Shown here: piece by piece, positions 46,809-50,594 of the stretch
How positions within the stretch are numbered: position 1 is the first letter of the stretch
How the letters are laid out: every line of letters starts with the position of its first letter
Origin: a virus
Taxonomy: Duplodnaviria > Caudoviricetes
Virus record (IMG/VR): IMGVR_UViG_3300036906_000230
Span: 1 to 56,792 of that record
Length of the DNA stretch: 56,792 bases
Direction: 5' to 3' (one strand)
Position numbers and translations under genes: made by a program
The notes under the pieces: model-generated
Database searches by the model: none
Told to the model about the DNA's origin: nothing
Seen by the model: only the letters and a program-made list of their open reading frames with translations

Positions 46809-46988
46809 TCACTGCTTGGCGAGGTGCGCGCCGAGGGCCGATGCGACGGCCTGCTGGTGAGAAGCCGGAGTCTGGCCGGCGGTGAAAGCGGCTTCGATGG
46901 CCTGCACGAGCGCCACCACCTCCTGCGTCAACTGAATGCCGGAGGGAGCCACGCTGAGAATCGTCTGGATGATCTGCAAGAAGTTCAT
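46809..46988 (-). CDS. Small amphipathic hypothetical protein
   Basis: AAAGGA RBS, MNFLQIIQ start. Confidence 0.6.
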   Translation of the reverse strand: MNFLQIIQTILSVAPSGIQLTQEVVALVQAIEAAFTAGQTPASHQQAVASALGAHLAKQ

Positions 46989-47092
46989 CGTGTTGTTCCT
47001 TTCTGGTCCGCAATCGGGAAAGCCGAGAGGAGCGGTCTTGGACCGGAGGGTTCCGCAACCGCCCCACATCGGGCTCTCCCGTATGGGGAGAG

Positions 47093-47611
47093 TTACGCCG
47101 TCGGCTTGGCCTGGGTCTGGGAAGGGGTTGACGCACCACCCGAAGCCGTCACGACGACGGGCACCAGCGCCGCGATCGTCTGCGAGATCGCGGCAGCAAG
47201 AGCGCTCGCGATCACCGGCGTGAGCGACGTGAACAGGTTCGCAACGTTGGCCGTGACAGCCTCCGCGCTCACCGCCTCACCCGCTCCGGCCGCCGCGACG
47301 GCGCCCTTGGTGGTTTCGCTGGCCGCAGTGCCTGCGGGCGACACGGTCTGCTGACCCTCGGTCGTGCCGACCTGACCGGCCAGCACGATGCCGGCGTTGA
47401 TGGCGTGGTCGATAGTGGCCGCGTTCTGCGCGCGGCGGCTGGCGGTCTGCGCCAAGTCCAGCGAGACCGCTTCCCAAGCGCGCTGCCGCGCCAGGGTTTC
47501 GCGACGGTTGTCGAGCTCCTCGTCGAAGAGGAGTTTGATGTTCTCGGCGCCGCCCAACAGACTGGGCTGATGGGTGACACACGGAGAGAGATTCGGATTA
47601 CCTTCTGCCAT
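47093..47611 (-). CDS. Ala/Thr-rich helical hypothetical protein
   Basis: AAAGGA RBS; clean codon usage. Confidence 0.7.
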   Translation of the reverse strand: MAEGNPNLSPCVTHQPSLLGGAENIKLLFDEELDNRRETLARQRAWEAVSLDLAQTASRRAQNAATIDHAINAGIVLAGQVGTTEGQQTVSPAGTAASETTKGAVAAAGAGEAVSAEAVTANVANLFTSLTPVIASALAAAISQTIAALVPVVVTASGGASTPSQTQAKPTA

Positions 47612-47689
47612 ACGGGAAATGTCCTTTCGGTTGAAATTCGGATTGGTTATGCGGCCTGGAACACCAGGCCGCGAAATGGAGAAGCGAGA

Positions 47690-47761
47690 CGCTCGATGTT
47701 TTTGGTTCCCTCAATCTGCTTGGCTCGCTCAAGGAGCATGGCGCTCCCGATGTCGATGGCT
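47690..47761 (-). ncRNA. TIGR-like mini-array A2 (2 units)
   Basis: Minus strand: (TA)AGCCA tcgacatc GGGAGCGCCA tgctcctt GAGCGAGCCA agcagatt GAGGGAACCA aaaacatc GAGCG. Confidence 0.8.
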
Positions 47762-49317
47762 TACGAAGCCTTTCGCTGTGGCCCATAGTGCGGGTTCGGG
47801 CCCGTGTGTTTGATGGCTCGCGAATCCTGGGTTTTGGAATTCAATGCGGCATCCGGGTCTACGCCGCGCGACTCGGCAACCTCCGCGTACGGCTGGCCGG
47901 TCGATTCAAGCACCGCCGCCGCGCCAGCCAGATTGACCAACCGCCGCACAATCACATCGCAGTAGGACGGCGAGATTTCACATCCATAGCCGACGCGGTC
48001 CAATAATTCCGCGGCAGCCATCGTGGTTCCGGAACCGAGGAATGGATCGTGGATCACGTCGCCAGCGTCGGAAAACGCGAGCACGAAGAACTCAACCAGC
48101 GCCCGCGGAAACGGAGCGGAGTGTGATCCCTGGCTGCTCTCCGACTTCACTTCGATCACGTTGCTGGGACGCGCCAGCCCCGTGTGACGGCCCTCCGAAT
48201 CGCTCGACAGACTCGACCGTGTTCGGCACCACGCTCCCTGATTCTTCCCGCCATCGGCGGCCGCGCCGCGGACTCCGGTACCCAGTAGCCCGCTTCCGGA
48301 CCGTGACTTCGGGTTGTTAGGCGAGTACTCAAAGCAGTCATCCGATTCGTGGCCCACCGCCTGGGGCCGGAACTTGATCCGCTGCTGGCGGCAGAAATGG
48401 TAAATCGGCTCGAAAGCATTCTTGAAACGGTTCCCCCAGCCGCCAGGCACGCCGTTGTCGGTCTTGCGCCAGCAAAACTCGTCTACGAAACGCCAGCCCC
48501 ACTGACGCCGATGCGCCAGCACCAGATCCATCACGTACAGATTCCGCTCGCCCTCGTCGGCGTGCGCTTTGATATTCAGGAAGTAGGAGCCGTCCGGTGC
48601 AAGGACCGACTCCACGCCGCCGGCCACCTCGCGGAACCACTCCACGTACTCCTCTGGCGGAACCGGCTTAAACCCGCTCGCCAGATCGTATTCGCGCTGC
48701 GTGGCGTAGGGCGGCGATGTGATGCAGACACTCGCGCGCGCACCGGACGGGAATAGCGTGGCGAGAACATTCCGGTCCCTGCAATCGCCGCACACCAGCC
48801 GGTGCTTTCCGATCAACCACGCGTCGCCAGGCCGGGTGACCGGCTCGGTGGGCGGCTCGGGAACGTCTTCCTCTGCGTCGTCCGGTACTTCCGGTTCGAC
48901 CAGCAGGCTTTCCAATTCTTCGTCGGAGAAGCCCACCACCGCGAGGTCAAGTCCCTCGCCCTCGAGTTCGCGCAACTCCGCGGCCAGCACCTTTTCGTCC
49001 CAGCCGGCATTAAGCGCCAGCTTGTTGTCCGCGATGATGTAGGCCCGCCGTTGAGTCTCGGAGAGATGATCCAGCACCACTACTGGGCATTCCGCGAGAC
49101 CCAACTTACGCGCCGCCAGGAGGCGGCCGTGGCCGGCCACGATCCCGGCGTCGGAGGCCACCAGGATCGGAGCATTAAAACCGAACTCGACAATCGAAGC
49201 CGCGATCTGCGCGATTTGCTCTGGAGAATGCGTCCGCGCGTTGCGCGCGTAGGGTACGAGGCGATCAAGTGGCCATAGTTCGATTCGGCGGGCCATCGAG
49301 AGAGTCGAAGCGCTCAT
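47761..49317 (-). CDS. ParB-N-terminal + N4/N6 DNA methyltransferase (SPPY)
   Basis: RNARTHS, IVAGHGR, ITSPPY, HSAPFP, DPFLGSG motifs; start at 49317 or 49296 (the longer ORF-track extension runs through the array). Confidence 0.9.
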   Translation of the reverse strand: MSASTLSMARRIELWPLDRLVPYARNARTHSPEQIAQIAASIVEFGFNAPILVASDAGIVAGHGRLLAARKLGLAECPVVVLDHLSETQRRAYIIADNKLALNAGWDEKVLAAELRELEGEGLDLAVVGFSDEELESLLVEPEVPDDAEEDVPEPPTEPVTRPGDAWLIGKHRLVCGDCRDRNVLATLFPSGARASVCITSPPYATQREYDLASGFKPVPPEEYVEWFREVAGGVESVLAPDGSYFLNIKAHADEGERNLYVMDLVLAHRRQWGWRFVDEFCWRKTDNGVPGGWGNRFKNAFEPIYHFCRQQRIKFRPQAVGHESDDCFEYSPNNPKSRSGSGLLGTGVRGAAADGGKNQGAWCRTRSSLSSDSEGRHTGLARPSNVIEVKSESSQGSHSAPFPRALVEFFVLAFSDAGDVIHDPFLGSGTTMAAAELLDRVGYGCEISPSYCDVIVRRLVNLAGAAAVLESTGQPYAEVAESRGVDPDAALNSKTQDSRAIKHTGPNPHYGPQRKAS

Positions 49318-49420
49318 CAATACTGGTTCACTCATCTGGCCTGGCTCGCTCTCAAAACTTGGCGCTCTCAAAGGAGATGGCTCGCTCCATTCCCCGGGTG
49401 CTCTCAACGGACGTGGCTGC
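49310..49420 (-). ncRNA. TIGR-like mini-array A3 (3 units)
   Basis: Minus strand: GCAGCCA cgtccgtt GAGAGCACCC ggggaatg GAGCGAGCCA tctccttt GAGAGCGCCA agttttga GAGCGAGCCA ggccagat GAGTGAACCA gtattgat GAGCGC. Confidence 0.85.
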
Positions 49421-49529
49421 ACATCGCGTCGCCCTTTGCGCCCCCGTTGGCCCACGTTGCGCCTGGTGGCGGCAGATTGGCCCGTTGTACCAGCCGTTCC
49501 TGGCGGCGCGAACAGGGCGCGCCGGTGGC

Positions 49530-49620
49530 CGACCGGTGACCGGGAATTTTTCGGCGTGGCGCAAGTGAAACGCGGCTATTCTTCAACGCGCCGCCGCCGC
49601 GCGCCGGGAAGTACCTATCG
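49530..49620 (-). other. Putative cos/packaging initiation region
   Basis: AGGTACTTCC (resembles lambda cosQ GGGTCCT) followed by GC-rich GGCGGCGGCG; non-coding, upstream of the MTase-terminase block. Confidence 0.45.
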
Positions 49621-49631
49621 AAGCATTAAGC

Positions 49632-49667
49632 CGCTCATGCCCCATGGTTCTCTCGGACGGCATGGCT
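49632..49667 (-). ncRNA. TIGR-like single unit A4
   Basis: Minus strand: (TG)AGCCA tgccgtcc GAGAGAACCA tggggcat GAGCG; exact 18-nt spacing. Confidence 0.75.
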
Positions 49668-50098
49668 CAATACGCGAAGTCGGCCAGCACCAGATCGCTG
49701 GCATCCCATGCATAGCCCGCGACGGGGCTGATCTTCATCGCGGTGGCGTCGTAGGTGTAGTCATCGCCCGCCGATTGACGAACGCCGTTCCGATATACCC
49801 TCAACGAAGCGGCAGTTGCTGCTTGCGACAAGAGGTATGTGCCATCGGCCTGGCGCGCGGGCTTCGACCCAACCACCACGTTGGGCGTTGCCGCCTGGAT
49901 TGTATAGCCGCTGCCGTTGGCGACGAGCGTGACGCCAGCGCCAACGCTCGCCACGACGACTTGGCCGGCTGGCGTCACCACCAGCACGCCGCCGTTCGCG
50001 AGCGCGGGTGCAAGCAGCATCCCGATGCGGACGGTGGTGGGCCCGGCCCACAACACCACCGCCATCAGCACGACTCCGATAATCGCTTTACGCAGCAT
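49667..50098 (-). CDS. Hypothetical exported/membrane protein
   Basis: N-terminal signal/TM segment; LRVYRNGVRQSAGDDYT beta motif. Confidence 0.65.
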   Translation of the reverse strand: MLRKAIIGVVLMAVVLWAGPTTVRIGMLLAPALANGGVLVVTPAGQVVVASVGAGVTLVANGSGYTIQAATPNVVVGSKPARQADGTYLLSQAATAASLRVYRNGVRQSAGDDYTYDATAMKISPVAGYAWDASDLVLADFAY

Positions 50099-50255
50099 GA
50101 GCCTTCTCCTCGGTCACCAGTTCATCGACGTCGCCAAACGATCCGCATTCGTCGCACTCGTACCGTTCACCCATATCGTGGTAGCCCGTCTCCGGGCATC
50201 GTCCGAAGTCGAACGGCGTAACCCGCGCATTGTCGCTTCCACATTCCGGGCACAT
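50088..50255 (-). CDS. Small zinc-ribbon protein (55 aa, MCPECG...YECDECG), not in the ORF track
   Basis: Two CxxC motifs; coupled to its neighbours. Confidence 0.6.
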   Translation of the reverse strand: MCPECGSDNARVTPFDFGRCPETGYHDMGERYECDECGSFGDVDELVTEEKAHAA

Positions 50256-50258
50256 GGT

Positions 50259-50594
50259 TCACACCAGGCAGTCGAGCACGACCGCCATGAAGACGGGTCG
50301 CAGCGCTGCGGGCGCCAGCGTTGAGTCGGAGCTGCCGCCCTGCAACGGCCGGAGCCTCCAGCACTCATGCCCGTCGTCGAGCTTCTGCTCAAAGGAATAG
50401 CCTTGCCCCTGGTAATCGCGAACCGTGGTGGGACGGCGCGGATCGCAGGCACGGCGGCGCAGGACGACGCGATTGATCGTGCCCTTCTTGTGGCGCACGA
50501 CCTTGGCGATGCCGTCGCGTTCCAAACGAAGCGCGTGCCGCCGGCCGATAAAATCAATCAGAGCGAAATCGAAGGTATAGAGCGGGATGGACAT
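50259..50594 (-). CDS. Hypothetical phage protein
   Basis: First ORF downstream of the 50733-50762 promoter. Confidence 0.6.
   Translation of the reverse strand: MSIPLYTFDFALIDFIGRRHALRLERDGIAKVVRHKKGTINRVVLRRRACDPRRPTTVRDYQGQGYSFEQKLDDGHECWRLRPLQGGSSDSTLAPAALRPVFMAVVLDCLV

What the first reader, a model, noticed from the sequence alone, without database searches (positions are those of the whole stretch)
47529..47720. A2 unit-2 guide resembles the immediately downstream gene (13/16)
Seen: B + revcomp(A) = AAAACATCAATCTGCT (E N I N L L) versus the resident AGAACATCAAACTCCT (E N I K L L, 47529-47544), about 150 bp away. All three mismatches are third codon positions (two synonymous). This is a second independent case of a guide aimed at a homologue of its neighbouring gene.
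Basis: partly seen in the sequence, partly recalled or inferred. Interest (0 to 1): 0.8.

Follow-up and report, generated by a model that had tools for sequence, protein, structure and literature searches.

The report
Phage guide RNAs matching neighbours' relatives
A small guide-RNA array in a soil prophage carries two guides that almost perfectly match conserved sites in the two genes beside it, as those genes read in related prophages that lack the array, giving candidate natural targets for an RNA-guided system whose targets are unknown.

Summary
The unit is a real tigRNA unit of a dual-repeat TIGR-TasA system: the 279-aa ORF at 10175-11014 matches solved TasR and TasH structures, and the window holds five arrays with ten units. 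Its guide, in the published tandem-spacer geometry, matches the resident gene at 47529-47544 in 13 of 16 letters. That is the only site of 13 or more in the 56.8-kb record, and all three mismatches fall on third codon positions.

On its own this is marginal: shuffled spacers give 0.3% for this guide and 3.7% across eight guides.

Of 68 homologues from related Acidobacteriota prophages, 42 read 15/16 at that site, 19 read 14/16, 7 read 13/16 and none reads 16/16. No relative has the array there. The sister guide (unit 1) matches the gene on the other side at 15/16 in 2 relatives and at 14 or more in 27, against 11/16 in the resident. Only 4 of 850 guides from other phages reach 15/16 in the same DNA.

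Points against: no perfect target exists, because the mismatch sits in an invariant Lys codon. Published Tas nucleases do not tolerate internal mismatches. The resident shows no local escape signal. Across the 850 guides there is no general tendency to resemble nearby DNA.

Best reading, at about 50%: guides aimed at array-less relatives.

The parts
47685..47766 (-). Satellite TIGR array A2. It has two 36-nt units and begins on the stop codon of the upstream ParB-methyltransferase gene. Unit 2 spans 47685-47730 and unit 1 spans 47721-47766.
   Evidence: 18-nt CCA periodicity with alternating edge and loop repeats and 8-nt spacers. It is absent from all 68 relatives with a recognisable site. 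Identical copies occur in contigs of two other studies.
47695..47720 (-). Unit-2 guide: spacer B (47702-47695), loop repeat (47712-47703) and spacer A (47720-47713).
47529..47544 (-). Resident near-target of the unit-2 guide (13/16), at codons 23-28 of ORF172. In related prophages the homologous site reads 15/16.
47093..47611 (-). ORF172, a conserved 172-aa phage protein of unknown function with no Pfam or PHROG family. It is the gene immediately downstream of A2.
   Evidence: The fold model has low confidence (pLDDT 54) and is mostly one long helix.
47651..47672 (-). 9-bp GC-rich hairpin between A2 and ORF172. It is also present in array-less relatives, so it belongs to the intergenic region and is not specific to the array.
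   Evidence: No U-tract; the terminator scan found none.
48563..48578 (-). Resident near-target of the unit-1 guide (11/16), at the F-L-N-I-K site of the ParB-methyltransferase. Relatives read up to 15/16.
47761..49335 (-). ParB_N plus N6/N4 DNA methyltransferase gene, bracketed by arrays A3 and A2. The true start may be the third in-frame ATG, at 49296.
49306..49423 (-). TIGR array A3 (three units), directly upstream of and overlapping the first possible start of the ParB-methyltransferase.
49627..49672 (-). Single-unit TIGR array A4, starting on the stop codon of ORF 49667-50098.
14971..15016 (-). Single tigRNA unit A5, lying in frame inside ORF 13531-15228.
11026..11143 (-). TIGR array A1 (three units), immediately upstream of tasA.
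10175..11014 (-). tasA: a 279-aa Nop-domain Tas protein without a nuclease domain.
   Evidence: PDB 9mty_A (TasR) at E 1.2e-19 and TasH 21kl_A at E 2.7e-12. phrog_4285 at E 4e-48. No nuclease family above the Pfam cut-off.
8448..10178 (-). ParB_N-DUF5131 gene overlapping the tasA stop, i.e. a tasParB-like operon partner.
   Evidence: The tasA-tasParB operon is described in PMC12045711 section 44.

Best explanation
Shown:
- The window is a roughly 57-kb prophage of peat and soil Acidobacteriota.
- It carries a dual-repeat TIGR-TasA system with a ParB-like operon partner and ten tigRNA units in five places.
- A2 is a promoter-less two-unit array inserted between two conserved genes of the packaging-side module.
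- Each A2 guide, read in the published tandem-spacer geometry, is one letter short of a highly conserved 16-bp site in one of the two flanking genes, as those genes read in related prophages.
- Those relatives have neither the array nor, in the five largest records searched, tasA.
- The resident copies are further from the guides (13/16 and 11/16).

Inferred:
- The guides are aimed at, and probably derive from, the alleles of array-less relatives, which share hosts and samples with this phage.
- A TasA-tigRNA complex would bind the rival's copy 67 bp into ORF172, and inside the methyltransferase gene, and act there as a roadblock or repressor. TasA has been shown to do this in reporter assays.
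- The phage's own diverged alleles would escape.
- Placing the array between its two target genes keeps each guide genetically linked to the insensitive alleles in a mosaic, recombining phage population.
For: System identity:
- Tas homology.
- 36-nt units with CCA before 19 of 20 spacers, and terminal edges that keep only the half retained in mature tigRNA, in all 5 arrays.
- The same edge repeat occurs beside 36-64%-identical TasA genes in other phages.

Relation to flanking genes:
- Unit 2 is 15/16 in 42 of 68 homologues.
- Unit 1 is 15/16 in 2 loci and 14 or more in 27 loci of 73.
- Of 850 foreign guides, 4 reach 15/16 and none has 14 or more in over 16 loci.
- 0 of 24 wrong-geometry controls and 2 of 56 mispaired controls reach 15 in the 45-locus set. 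In the 73-locus set, 3 of 80 controls do.
- 0 of 400 shuffles of unit 2 reach 15.
- Both sites are among the most conserved windows of their genes: rank 7 of 503 and 22 of 605.
- At the 6 positions where the resident differs from the relatives' consensus within the two sites, the guides agree with the consensus 5 times and with the resident 0 times.

Opportunity:
- 0 of 5 large relatives' records have tasA, and 4 whole relatives' records have no arrays.
- Several MAGs hold 2-3 related prophage loci.
- In three peat and permafrost runs, the guide-matching letters at 47531 and 47543 stand beside identical copies of this phage's A2. For example, in X3 they account for depth 199 of 217.5 and 108 of 164.

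Function:
- TasA represses targeted genes (10.64898/2026.09.09.750476, section 12).
- The unit-1 mismatch to the best allele is an rG:dT wobble (derived).
Against: - No 16/16 target exists in 68 ORF172 homologues or 42 methyltransferase sites.
- The exact 16-mers occur in IMG/VR only in unrelated genes (99 and 40 hits).
- A perfect unit-2 target would need Asn at a Lys that is invariant in 12 of 12 aligned homologues.
- The unit-2 mismatch is rA:dG, at an internal spacer position.
- For TasR and TasH, internal single mismatches abolish editing or cleavage. Tolerance in TasA is unknown.
- The resident alleles show no local excess of divergence: 23% and 53% of 16-nt windows differ from the consensus as much as the sites do. 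Self-avoidance is therefore explained by general divergence of the module.
- The step from 13 to 15 for unit 2 uses the commonest codons.
- The other eight guides have no match of 15 or more in relatives.
- Across 850 guides of this repeat family there is no excess of near matches in the true geometry, in their own loci or in each other's.
- No expression data exist for A2: the RNA run covers it at depth 0-1.
This does not affect the unit-1 statistic.
Confidence: 0.5

Rival explanations
1. Spacer-origin relic. The two A2 spacer pairs were copied, by the unknown TIGR spacer-acquisition process, from the flanking genes of an ancestor or a co-infecting relative. They have since drifted by one letter each. 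The resemblance records where the spacers came from, and they no longer act on anything.
For: - The best match is 15/16 and never 16/16.
- The mismatches fall on codons whose amino acids are invariant, so no functional homologue can match fully.
- Tas nucleases are intolerant of internal mismatches.
- The origin of TIGR spacers is an open question (PMC12045711 Discussion).
- Relative L016 has a degenerate single unit at the same intergenic site, in a 35.6-kb record without tasA.
Against: - The repeats of A2 are intact and the terminal edges are correctly truncated.
- The array is identical in contigs from two other studies.
- The match holds only in the functional tandem geometry.
- Both sites lie in the most conserved 1-4% of their genes. 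Random acquisition would not favour this.
Confidence: 0.2
2. Chance. The resemblances are the best of many comparisons: ten guides, both strands, two flanking genes and dozens of allelic variants.
For: - The resident match alone has a family-wise probability of about 0.04.
- Control pseudo-guides do reach 15/16 in the relatives' DNA: 2 of 56 mispaired in 45 loci, 3 of 80 in 73 loci and 4 of 850 foreign guides.
- There is no general proximity effect among 850 guides.
- The data set was selected through the flagged gene.
- The improvement in relatives uses common codons.
Against: - Two of ten guides reach 15/16 against a rate of 4 in 850, roughly 1e-3 by binomial estimate.
- Both guides come from the same array, each hits one of its two flanking genes, and both hit very conserved sites shared by 27 and 62 loci. 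No foreign guide has 14 or more in over 16 loci.
- The match appears only in the true geometry.
Confidence: 0.18
3. Autoregulation. The guides bind the resident copies despite mismatches and tune expression of ORF172 and the methyltransferase in cis.
For: - Proximity of guide and gene.
- TasA acts as a repressor.
- The array is probably co-transcribed with the genes it would regulate.
Against: - The resident sites are the poorest matches: 13/16 (only 7 of 68 relatives are as low) and 11/16 (lower than all 42 relatives).
- At resident-versus-consensus differences the guides never side with the resident, 0 of 6.
- Double mismatches abolish Tas nuclease activity.
Confidence: 0.07
4. The 18-nt periodic repeats are protein-binding iterons rather than RNA genes, so the 'guide' is meaningless.
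For: This was my first reading, before any protein search. No Rfam family matched.
Against: - A Tas protein gene lies next to A1.
- The same edge repeat flanks TasA genes in many phages.
- The unit length, CCA boxes and half-edge ends fit published tigRNAs.
Confidence: 0.02

Closest known systems
Dual-repeat TIGR-TasA systems with a tasParB partner. Sources: Faure et al. 2025, PMC12045711 (passages and section 44 read); Xu et al. 2026 preprint 10.64898/2026.09.09.750476 (sections 5, 12, 13 read).
   Same: - A Nop-domain Tas protein without a nuclease.
- 36-nt units made of 10-nt edge and loop repeats with two short spacers.
- CCA (box C) before each spacer.
- A truncated first and last edge repeat.
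- A ParB-like gene in an operon with tasA.
- Phage origin.
- The tandem-spacer geometry.
   Different: - Four of the five arrays lie 4-39 kb from tasA, beside or inside unrelated genes. The published finder looks around tas loci.
- Spacers are 8 nt, and GA rather than UG follows them.
- Two guides have identifiable near-cognate sites in the flanking genes of array-less relatives. Both papers state that natural targets and spacer origins are unknown.
Free-standing homing endonucleases of T4-like phages (seg and mob genes; intronless homing, marker exclusion). Source: Edgell et al. 2010, PMC2988022 (passages read).
   Same: - A promoter-less cassette in an intergenic region between genes conserved among related phages.
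- The recognition site lies hundreds of base pairs away, in a neighbouring conserved gene of relatives that lack the cassette.
- The carrier's own allele differs at the site.
   Different: - Recognition here would be by RNA guides supplied in cis, with the protein encoded about 37 kb away.
- TasA has no nuclease domain.
- No cleavage, co-conversion tract or preferential inheritance has been shown.
- The best target match is 15/16.
Virus-borne mini-CRISPR arrays used in interviral conflicts. Source: Medvedeva et al. 2019, PMC6858448 (abstract read).
   Same: - Arrays of 1-2 guides carried by a virus, away from any effector gene cluster.
- Guides directed at closely related viruses in the same population.
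- Proposed superinfection exclusion.
   Different: - Those spacers match their targets and use the host's Cas proteins.
- Here the effector is phage-encoded, the guides are 8+8 nt tandem spacers, and the matches are imperfect.

Membership tests
TIGR-Tas (dual-repeat, TasA type) | A Tas protein with a Nop domain related to characterised Tas proteins | tested here: met
   9mty_A (TasR; PDB code confirmed in PMC12045711) at E 1.2e-19. TasH 21kl_A at E 2.7e-12.
TIGR-Tas (dual-repeat, TasA type) | No RuvC or HNH nuclease domain (this defines TasA) | tested here: met
   The protein is 279 aa. Only about 68 residues precede the region aligned to TasR residues 146-322. The Pfam HNH_3 hit scores 20.3 bits, below the cut-off of 24.8, and lies in a stretch also conserved in TasR.
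TIGR-Tas (dual-repeat, TasA type) | Arrays of two alternating short repeats (edge, loop) with two spacers per 36-nt unit | tested here: met
   Ten units in five arrays, with 10-nt repeats and 8-nt spacers.
TIGR-Tas (dual-repeat, TasA type) | Box C (CCA) immediately 5' of each spacer | tested here: met
   19 of 20 repeats that precede a spacer end in CCA. The loop of A3 unit 1 ends in CCC.
TIGR-Tas (dual-repeat, TasA type) | Box D (UG) immediately 3' of each spacer | tested here: inconclusive
   Spacers are followed by GAG, GAA or GGG, not UG. The same holds in related TasA arrays L046 and L177. The published motif was defined on TasR.
TIGR-Tas (dual-repeat, TasA type) | [quoted passage not shown] | tested here: met
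   All five arrays keep only ...AGCCA at the start and GAGCG... at the end.
TIGR-Tas (dual-repeat, TasA type) | A rho-independent terminator after the array | tested here: not met
   The consensus scan found no terminator in 46900-50300. The hairpin after A2 lacks a U-tract and also exists in array-less relatives.
TIGR-Tas (dual-repeat, TasA type) | Transcription and processing into 36-nt tigRNAs bound by Tas | not testable with these tools
   Only assembled metatranscriptome contigs were available, and they give depth 0-1 over A2.
TIGR-Tas (dual-repeat, TasA type) | Sequence-specific DNA binding through both spacers on opposite strands | not testable with these tools
   The geometry was inferred from the published 3' overhangs. 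It is also supported by the fact that only this geometry gives the 15/16 matches.
Homing-type selfish cassette (as free-standing homing endonucleases) | The recognition site lies in a neighbouring conserved gene of cassette-less relatives | tested here: inconclusive
   Sites at 15/16 lie 156 bp and about 800 bp from the array position, in array-less relatives. There is no perfect match.
Homing-type selfish cassette (as free-standing homing endonucleases) | The carrier's own allele is not recognised | tested here: inconclusive
   The resident sites are 13/16 and 11/16, but this is no more divergent than the rest of the genes.
Homing-type selfish cassette (as free-standing homing endonucleases) | DNA cleavage at the site | tested here: not met
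   TasA has no nuclease domain. Whether the ParB-like partner cuts DNA was not tested.
Homing-type selfish cassette (as free-standing homing endonucleases) | Co-conversion of flanking markers or over-representation in mixed infections | not tested
   No analysis of recombination tracts was made.

The most novel reading that the evidence does not exclude
Satellite tigRNA units may be RNA-guided counterparts of free-standing homing cassettes. Each mini-array sits between the insensitive alleles of the genes that it targets in array-less relatives. During co-residence or co-infection, TasA, perhaps with its ParB-like partner, is directed to the rival's conserved alleles. Either silencing or recombination then favours the block made of array plus linked alleles. 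This would make such units selfish, self-spreading modules and would explain why TIGR units are scattered through phage genomes.
Probability: 0.15. Interest if true: 0.9.

Novelty: new variant of a known kind. Interest (0 to 1): 0.62.

Why it matters
Both TIGR-Tas papers read here say that the natural targets of tigRNAs and the origin of their spacers are unknown, and that short spacers give too many false target matches.

This locus offers a concrete, testable pair of candidate targets, with a controlled statistical argument behind them. The proposed ecological logic is competition between related prophages that share hosts and samples. The locus also shows that tigRNA units can be scattered singly or in pairs far from tasA, beside and even inside other genes, where finders that look only around tas genes would miss them.

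If the guides act on the 15/16 alleles, TIGR-TasA would be a phage weapon against its own relatives. If they do not, the locus still records where two spacer pairs came from, which bears on how TIGR arrays acquire spacers.

Tried and rejected
- Iteron reading. My first reading was protein-binding iterons. I dropped it after the PDB search.
- Rfam. No family matched at gathering thresholds.
- Phage GenBank collection. No tblastn match to ORF172.
- Function of ORF172. No Pfam or PHROG family, and no usable Atlas hit. The AlphaFold model had mean pLDDT 54, so no fold search was made. Function remains unknown.
- Exact targets, unit 2. The exact 16-mer gave 99 IMG/VR hits, none in an ORF172 homologue. 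Five GC-rich hits lie in a 719-aa ORF unrelated to ORF172, with blastp E 1.9. With a gene-specific flank in JGI metagenomes there was 1 hit, in an unrelated ORF.
- Exact targets, unit 1. The exact 16-mer gave 40 IMG/VR hits, none in a methyltransferase context.
- Local escape. I tested whether the resident alleles diverge more at the target sites than elsewhere. They do not.
- Generality. 850 guides from 118 IMG/VR stretches showed no excess of near matches to their own or each other's loci in the true geometry.
- Other guides of the window. A3 unit 1 reaches 14/16 at the R-N-A-R-T motif in 4 of 92 such sites. 109 of 850 foreign guides also reach 14 or more, so this is not significant. A1, A4, A5 and the other A3 guides have nothing at 15 or more in relatives.
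- Reciprocal test. The two guides of relative G006 have no site of 13 or more in the window.
- Promoter and terminator scan. It found nothing in 46900-50300.
- Expression. The RNA run X17 has depth 0-1 over A2, so no statement on transcription of A2 is possible.
- Supplements. The supplementary files of the TIGR papers (lists of arrays and spacers, fig. S14) could not be seen. They may already list this phage family or satellite arrays.
Full report
WHAT IS THERE

The region between the stop codon of a ParB-methyltransferase gene (47761) and ORF 47093-47611 holds direct repeats with an 18-nt period on the plus strand. The same period and the same two repeat types recur at 11026-11143 and 49306-49423.

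I first read these as iterons.
- The 279-aa ORF at 10175-11014, directly downstream of the first array, matches the solved TasR structure 9mty_A at E 1.2e-19 and TasH chains at E 2.7e-12. The Science paper names 9MTY as its TasR model.
- The ORF has no nuclease family above the Pfam cut-off.
- It overlaps a ParB_N-DUF5131 gene. This fits the tasA-tasParB operons with 10-nt repeats described in PMC12045711 section 44.

Read on the minus strand, every unit is edge repeat, 8-nt spacer A, loop repeat, 8-nt spacer B. CCA precedes 19 of 20 spacers. One is at 49627-49672, starting on the stop codon of ORF 49667-50098. The other is at 14971-15016, in frame inside ORF 13531-15228.

In all five arrays the outermost edge repeats keep only the half (…AGCCA at the start, GAGCG… at the end) that published mature 36-nt tigRNAs retain. 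The same edge repeat stands next to TasA genes of 36-64% identity in other viral contigs and in at least 118 IMG/VR stretches. A2 is therefore a real two-unit satellite TIGR array, about 37 kb from tasA.

THE OBSERVATION

The minus strand at 47544-47529 matches it 13/16, with mismatches at the third positions of codons E23, K26 and L27.

The geometry used is the one that yields the published 3' overhangs. That is my derivation from the cleavage rules quoted. One sentence of the paper on the side of the cut does not fit it, while the C-5 rule and the 3' overhang do.

This is the only site of 13/16 or more for this guide in the 56.8-kb record. With shuffled spacers, a match of 13/16 or more within 200 bp of the array arises in 0.33% of trials for this guide. 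It arises in 3.7% of trials for at least one of the eight guides. The resident match alone is therefore marginal.

ORF172 has 45 relatives in IMG/VR and 28 in GTDB genomes. The latter are nearly all MAGs of Bryobacteraceae, Solibacteraceae and other Acidobacteriota, several with two or three such loci.

- In 68 of the 73 loci the homologous site could be read: 42 are 15/16 to the guide, 19 are 14/16, 7 are 13/16 and none is 16/16.
- None of these relatives has an array upstream of ORF172. The hairpin that follows A2 is present in them, so it belongs to the intergenic region.
- Five large relatives' records have no tasA, and four whole records have no TIGR units.
- The sister guide, A2 unit 1, matches the F-L-N-I-K-E-H site of the upstream ParB-methyltransferase in relatives at 15/16 in 2 loci and at 14 or more in 27 loci. 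The resident copy is 11/16, lower than all 42 relatives' sites found by pattern.

CONTROLS

In the 45-locus set:
- 0 of 24 wrong-geometry pseudo-guides reach 15/16.
- 2 of 56 mispaired pseudo-guides reach 15/16.
- 0 of 400 shuffles of unit 2 reach 15/16.

In the 73-locus set, 3 of 80 pseudo-guides reach 15, with at most 11 loci at 14 or more.

The best null is 850 real guides of the same repeat family from other phages:
- 4 reach 15/16 anywhere in the 446 kb.
- None has 14 or more in over 16 loci.
- The two A2 guides have 62 and 27 such loci.

Two of ten guides reaching 15 at a rate of 4 in 850 is about 1e-3 by a binomial estimate. It is smaller still if one requires that both guides come from one array and each hits one of its two flanking genes. 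Both sites are among the most conserved 16-nt windows of their genes, rank 7 of 503 and 22 of 605.

Two cautions apply:
- The two extra matches of unit 2 in relatives are the commonest codons, GAA and CTG, so they add little beyond the resident match.

RESULTS AGAINST A SIMPLE TARGETING STORY

- No perfect target was found. The guide's mismatch to the consensus would require Asn at Lys26, which is invariant in 12 of 12 aligned proteins. Unit 1 would require Asp at an Asn present in all 42 sites.
- The exact 16-mers occur in IMG/VR and JGI metagenomes only in unrelated genes.
- For TasR in yeast and TasH in vitro, internal single mismatches nearly abolish activity and double mismatches abolish it. 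No such data exist for TasA binding.
- The unit-1 mismatch to the best allele is an rG:dT wobble, while the unit-2 mismatch is rA:dG.
- The resident alleles are not specially diverged at the sites. The resident module is 58-88% identical in DNA to relatives, and 23% and 53% of 16-nt windows differ from the consensus at least as much. This is general divergence, and no signature of escape mutations is visible.
- Across 850 guides there is no excess of near matches in the true geometry. In their own loci the count at 13 or more is 62, against 49-73 in five controls. In other loci the count at 15 or more is 18, against 16-24.
- The remaining eight guides of the window have no convincing near-target.

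ECOLOGY

Contigs identical to the window across A2 occur in two other studies of peat and permafrost (X2 record 11, X3 record 20). In the same runs, the letters that make relatives match the guide dominate the laid contigs. For example, in X3 at 47531 they account for 199 of 217.5, and at 47543 for 108 of 164. The candidate targets therefore co-occur with this phage. Depths of contigs are not cell counts.

INTERPRETATION

The relation between the A2 guides and the flanking gene families is probably real; I put it near 80%.

The reading I favour, at about 50%, is that the guides are aimed at the alleles of array-less relatives and act through TasA as a roadblock or repressor. TasA does this in reporters. 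The array would be kept next to the insensitive alleles by linkage.

The arrangement resembles free-standing homing endonuclease cassettes of T4-like phages. Those are intergenic and promoter-less, with sites hundreds of base pairs away in a neighbouring conserved gene of cassette-less relatives (PMC2988022). It also resembles virus-borne mini-CRISPR arrays aimed at close relatives (PMC6858448, abstract).

The rivals are:
- a relic of spacer origin (0.2)
- chance (0.18)
- autoregulation (0.07), disfavoured because the guides side with the relatives' consensus in 5 of 6 differing positions and never with the resident
- iterons (0.02)

It is an unchecked AI note and was used only as a lead.

NOVELTY

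The system itself is a new member of a known kind (TIGR-TasA with a ParB-like partner). What is new is the pair of candidate natural targets and the scattered single- and double-unit arrays. My literature search for 'TIGR-Tas' listed 47 papers, and I read parts of four of them (PMC12045711, 10.64898/2026.09.09.750476, 10.64898/2026.08.11.744272, 10.64898/2026.07.30.739390). None of the passages read reports natural targets in flanking-gene homologues. The two main papers state that targets and spacer origin are unknown. I did not read the remaining papers or any supplements.

Noticed in passing
window 49627-49672 (-): A single tigRNA unit (A4) begins on the stop codon of ORF 49667-50098. Like A2, it sits flush behind a gene. 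Its guide has no match of 14 or more in relatives.
   Followed up: partly
window 14971-15016 (-): A single tigRNA unit (A5) lies in frame inside ORF 13531-15228, in a Pro/Gly/Ser-rich stretch ahead of a helicase-like region. Intragenic units have been reported for tas genes. This one is in a different gene.
   Followed up: partly
window 11090-11097 and 11134-11141: Spacer A of A1 unit 2 is identical to the last 8 nt of A1's own 5'-terminal edge repeat, and 7/8 to that of A3. This may be a guide that recognises array ends, as an earlier scan note described for another phage.
   Followed up: no
window 11036-11061: The two spacers of A1 unit 3 are almost the same (6 of 8 letters), so the predicted target is a near-palindrome.
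   Followed up: no
window 47695-47756; relatives' sites in L001-L045: Both A2 near-targets contain the same nine letters, coding Asn-Ile-Lys, although they lie in unrelated genes. The two guides share a 7-nt core in opposite spacer roles.
   Followed up: no
L016, about 100 nt upstream of its ORF172 homologue: A degenerate single unit (edge-like, 8 nt, loop-like, 8 nt, no closing edge) sits at the same intergenic site as A2, in a 35.6-kb record without tasA. Its spacers are different and have no match of 13 or more.
   Followed up: partly
L177 / G006 (36.5-kb provirus record): This is a whole-genome relative (67-80% DNA identity over most of window 2-37 kb). It has tasA and a two-unit A1-like array with different spacers, but no ParB-DUF5131 gene. 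The ParB-like partner is therefore not always present.
   Followed up: partly
Several records have arrays in two or three separate stretches, so scattered arrays are common in this repeat family.
   Followed up: partly
window 49031-49434, run X17 record 8: A 409-nt contig from a peat metatranscriptome covers array A3 and the start of the methyltransferase, with 9 differences and a 5-nt insertion after 49335. It may be RNA of a close relative or carried-over DNA.
   Followed up: no
L261 (IMG/VR): This relative has both ParB-methyltransferases (72-74% aa identity) and a different small gene in place of ORF172. It has no array at the A2 position, but one tigRNA unit further upstream, beyond what looked by eye like a tRNA-type sequence (no tRNA scan was run).
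   Followed up: no
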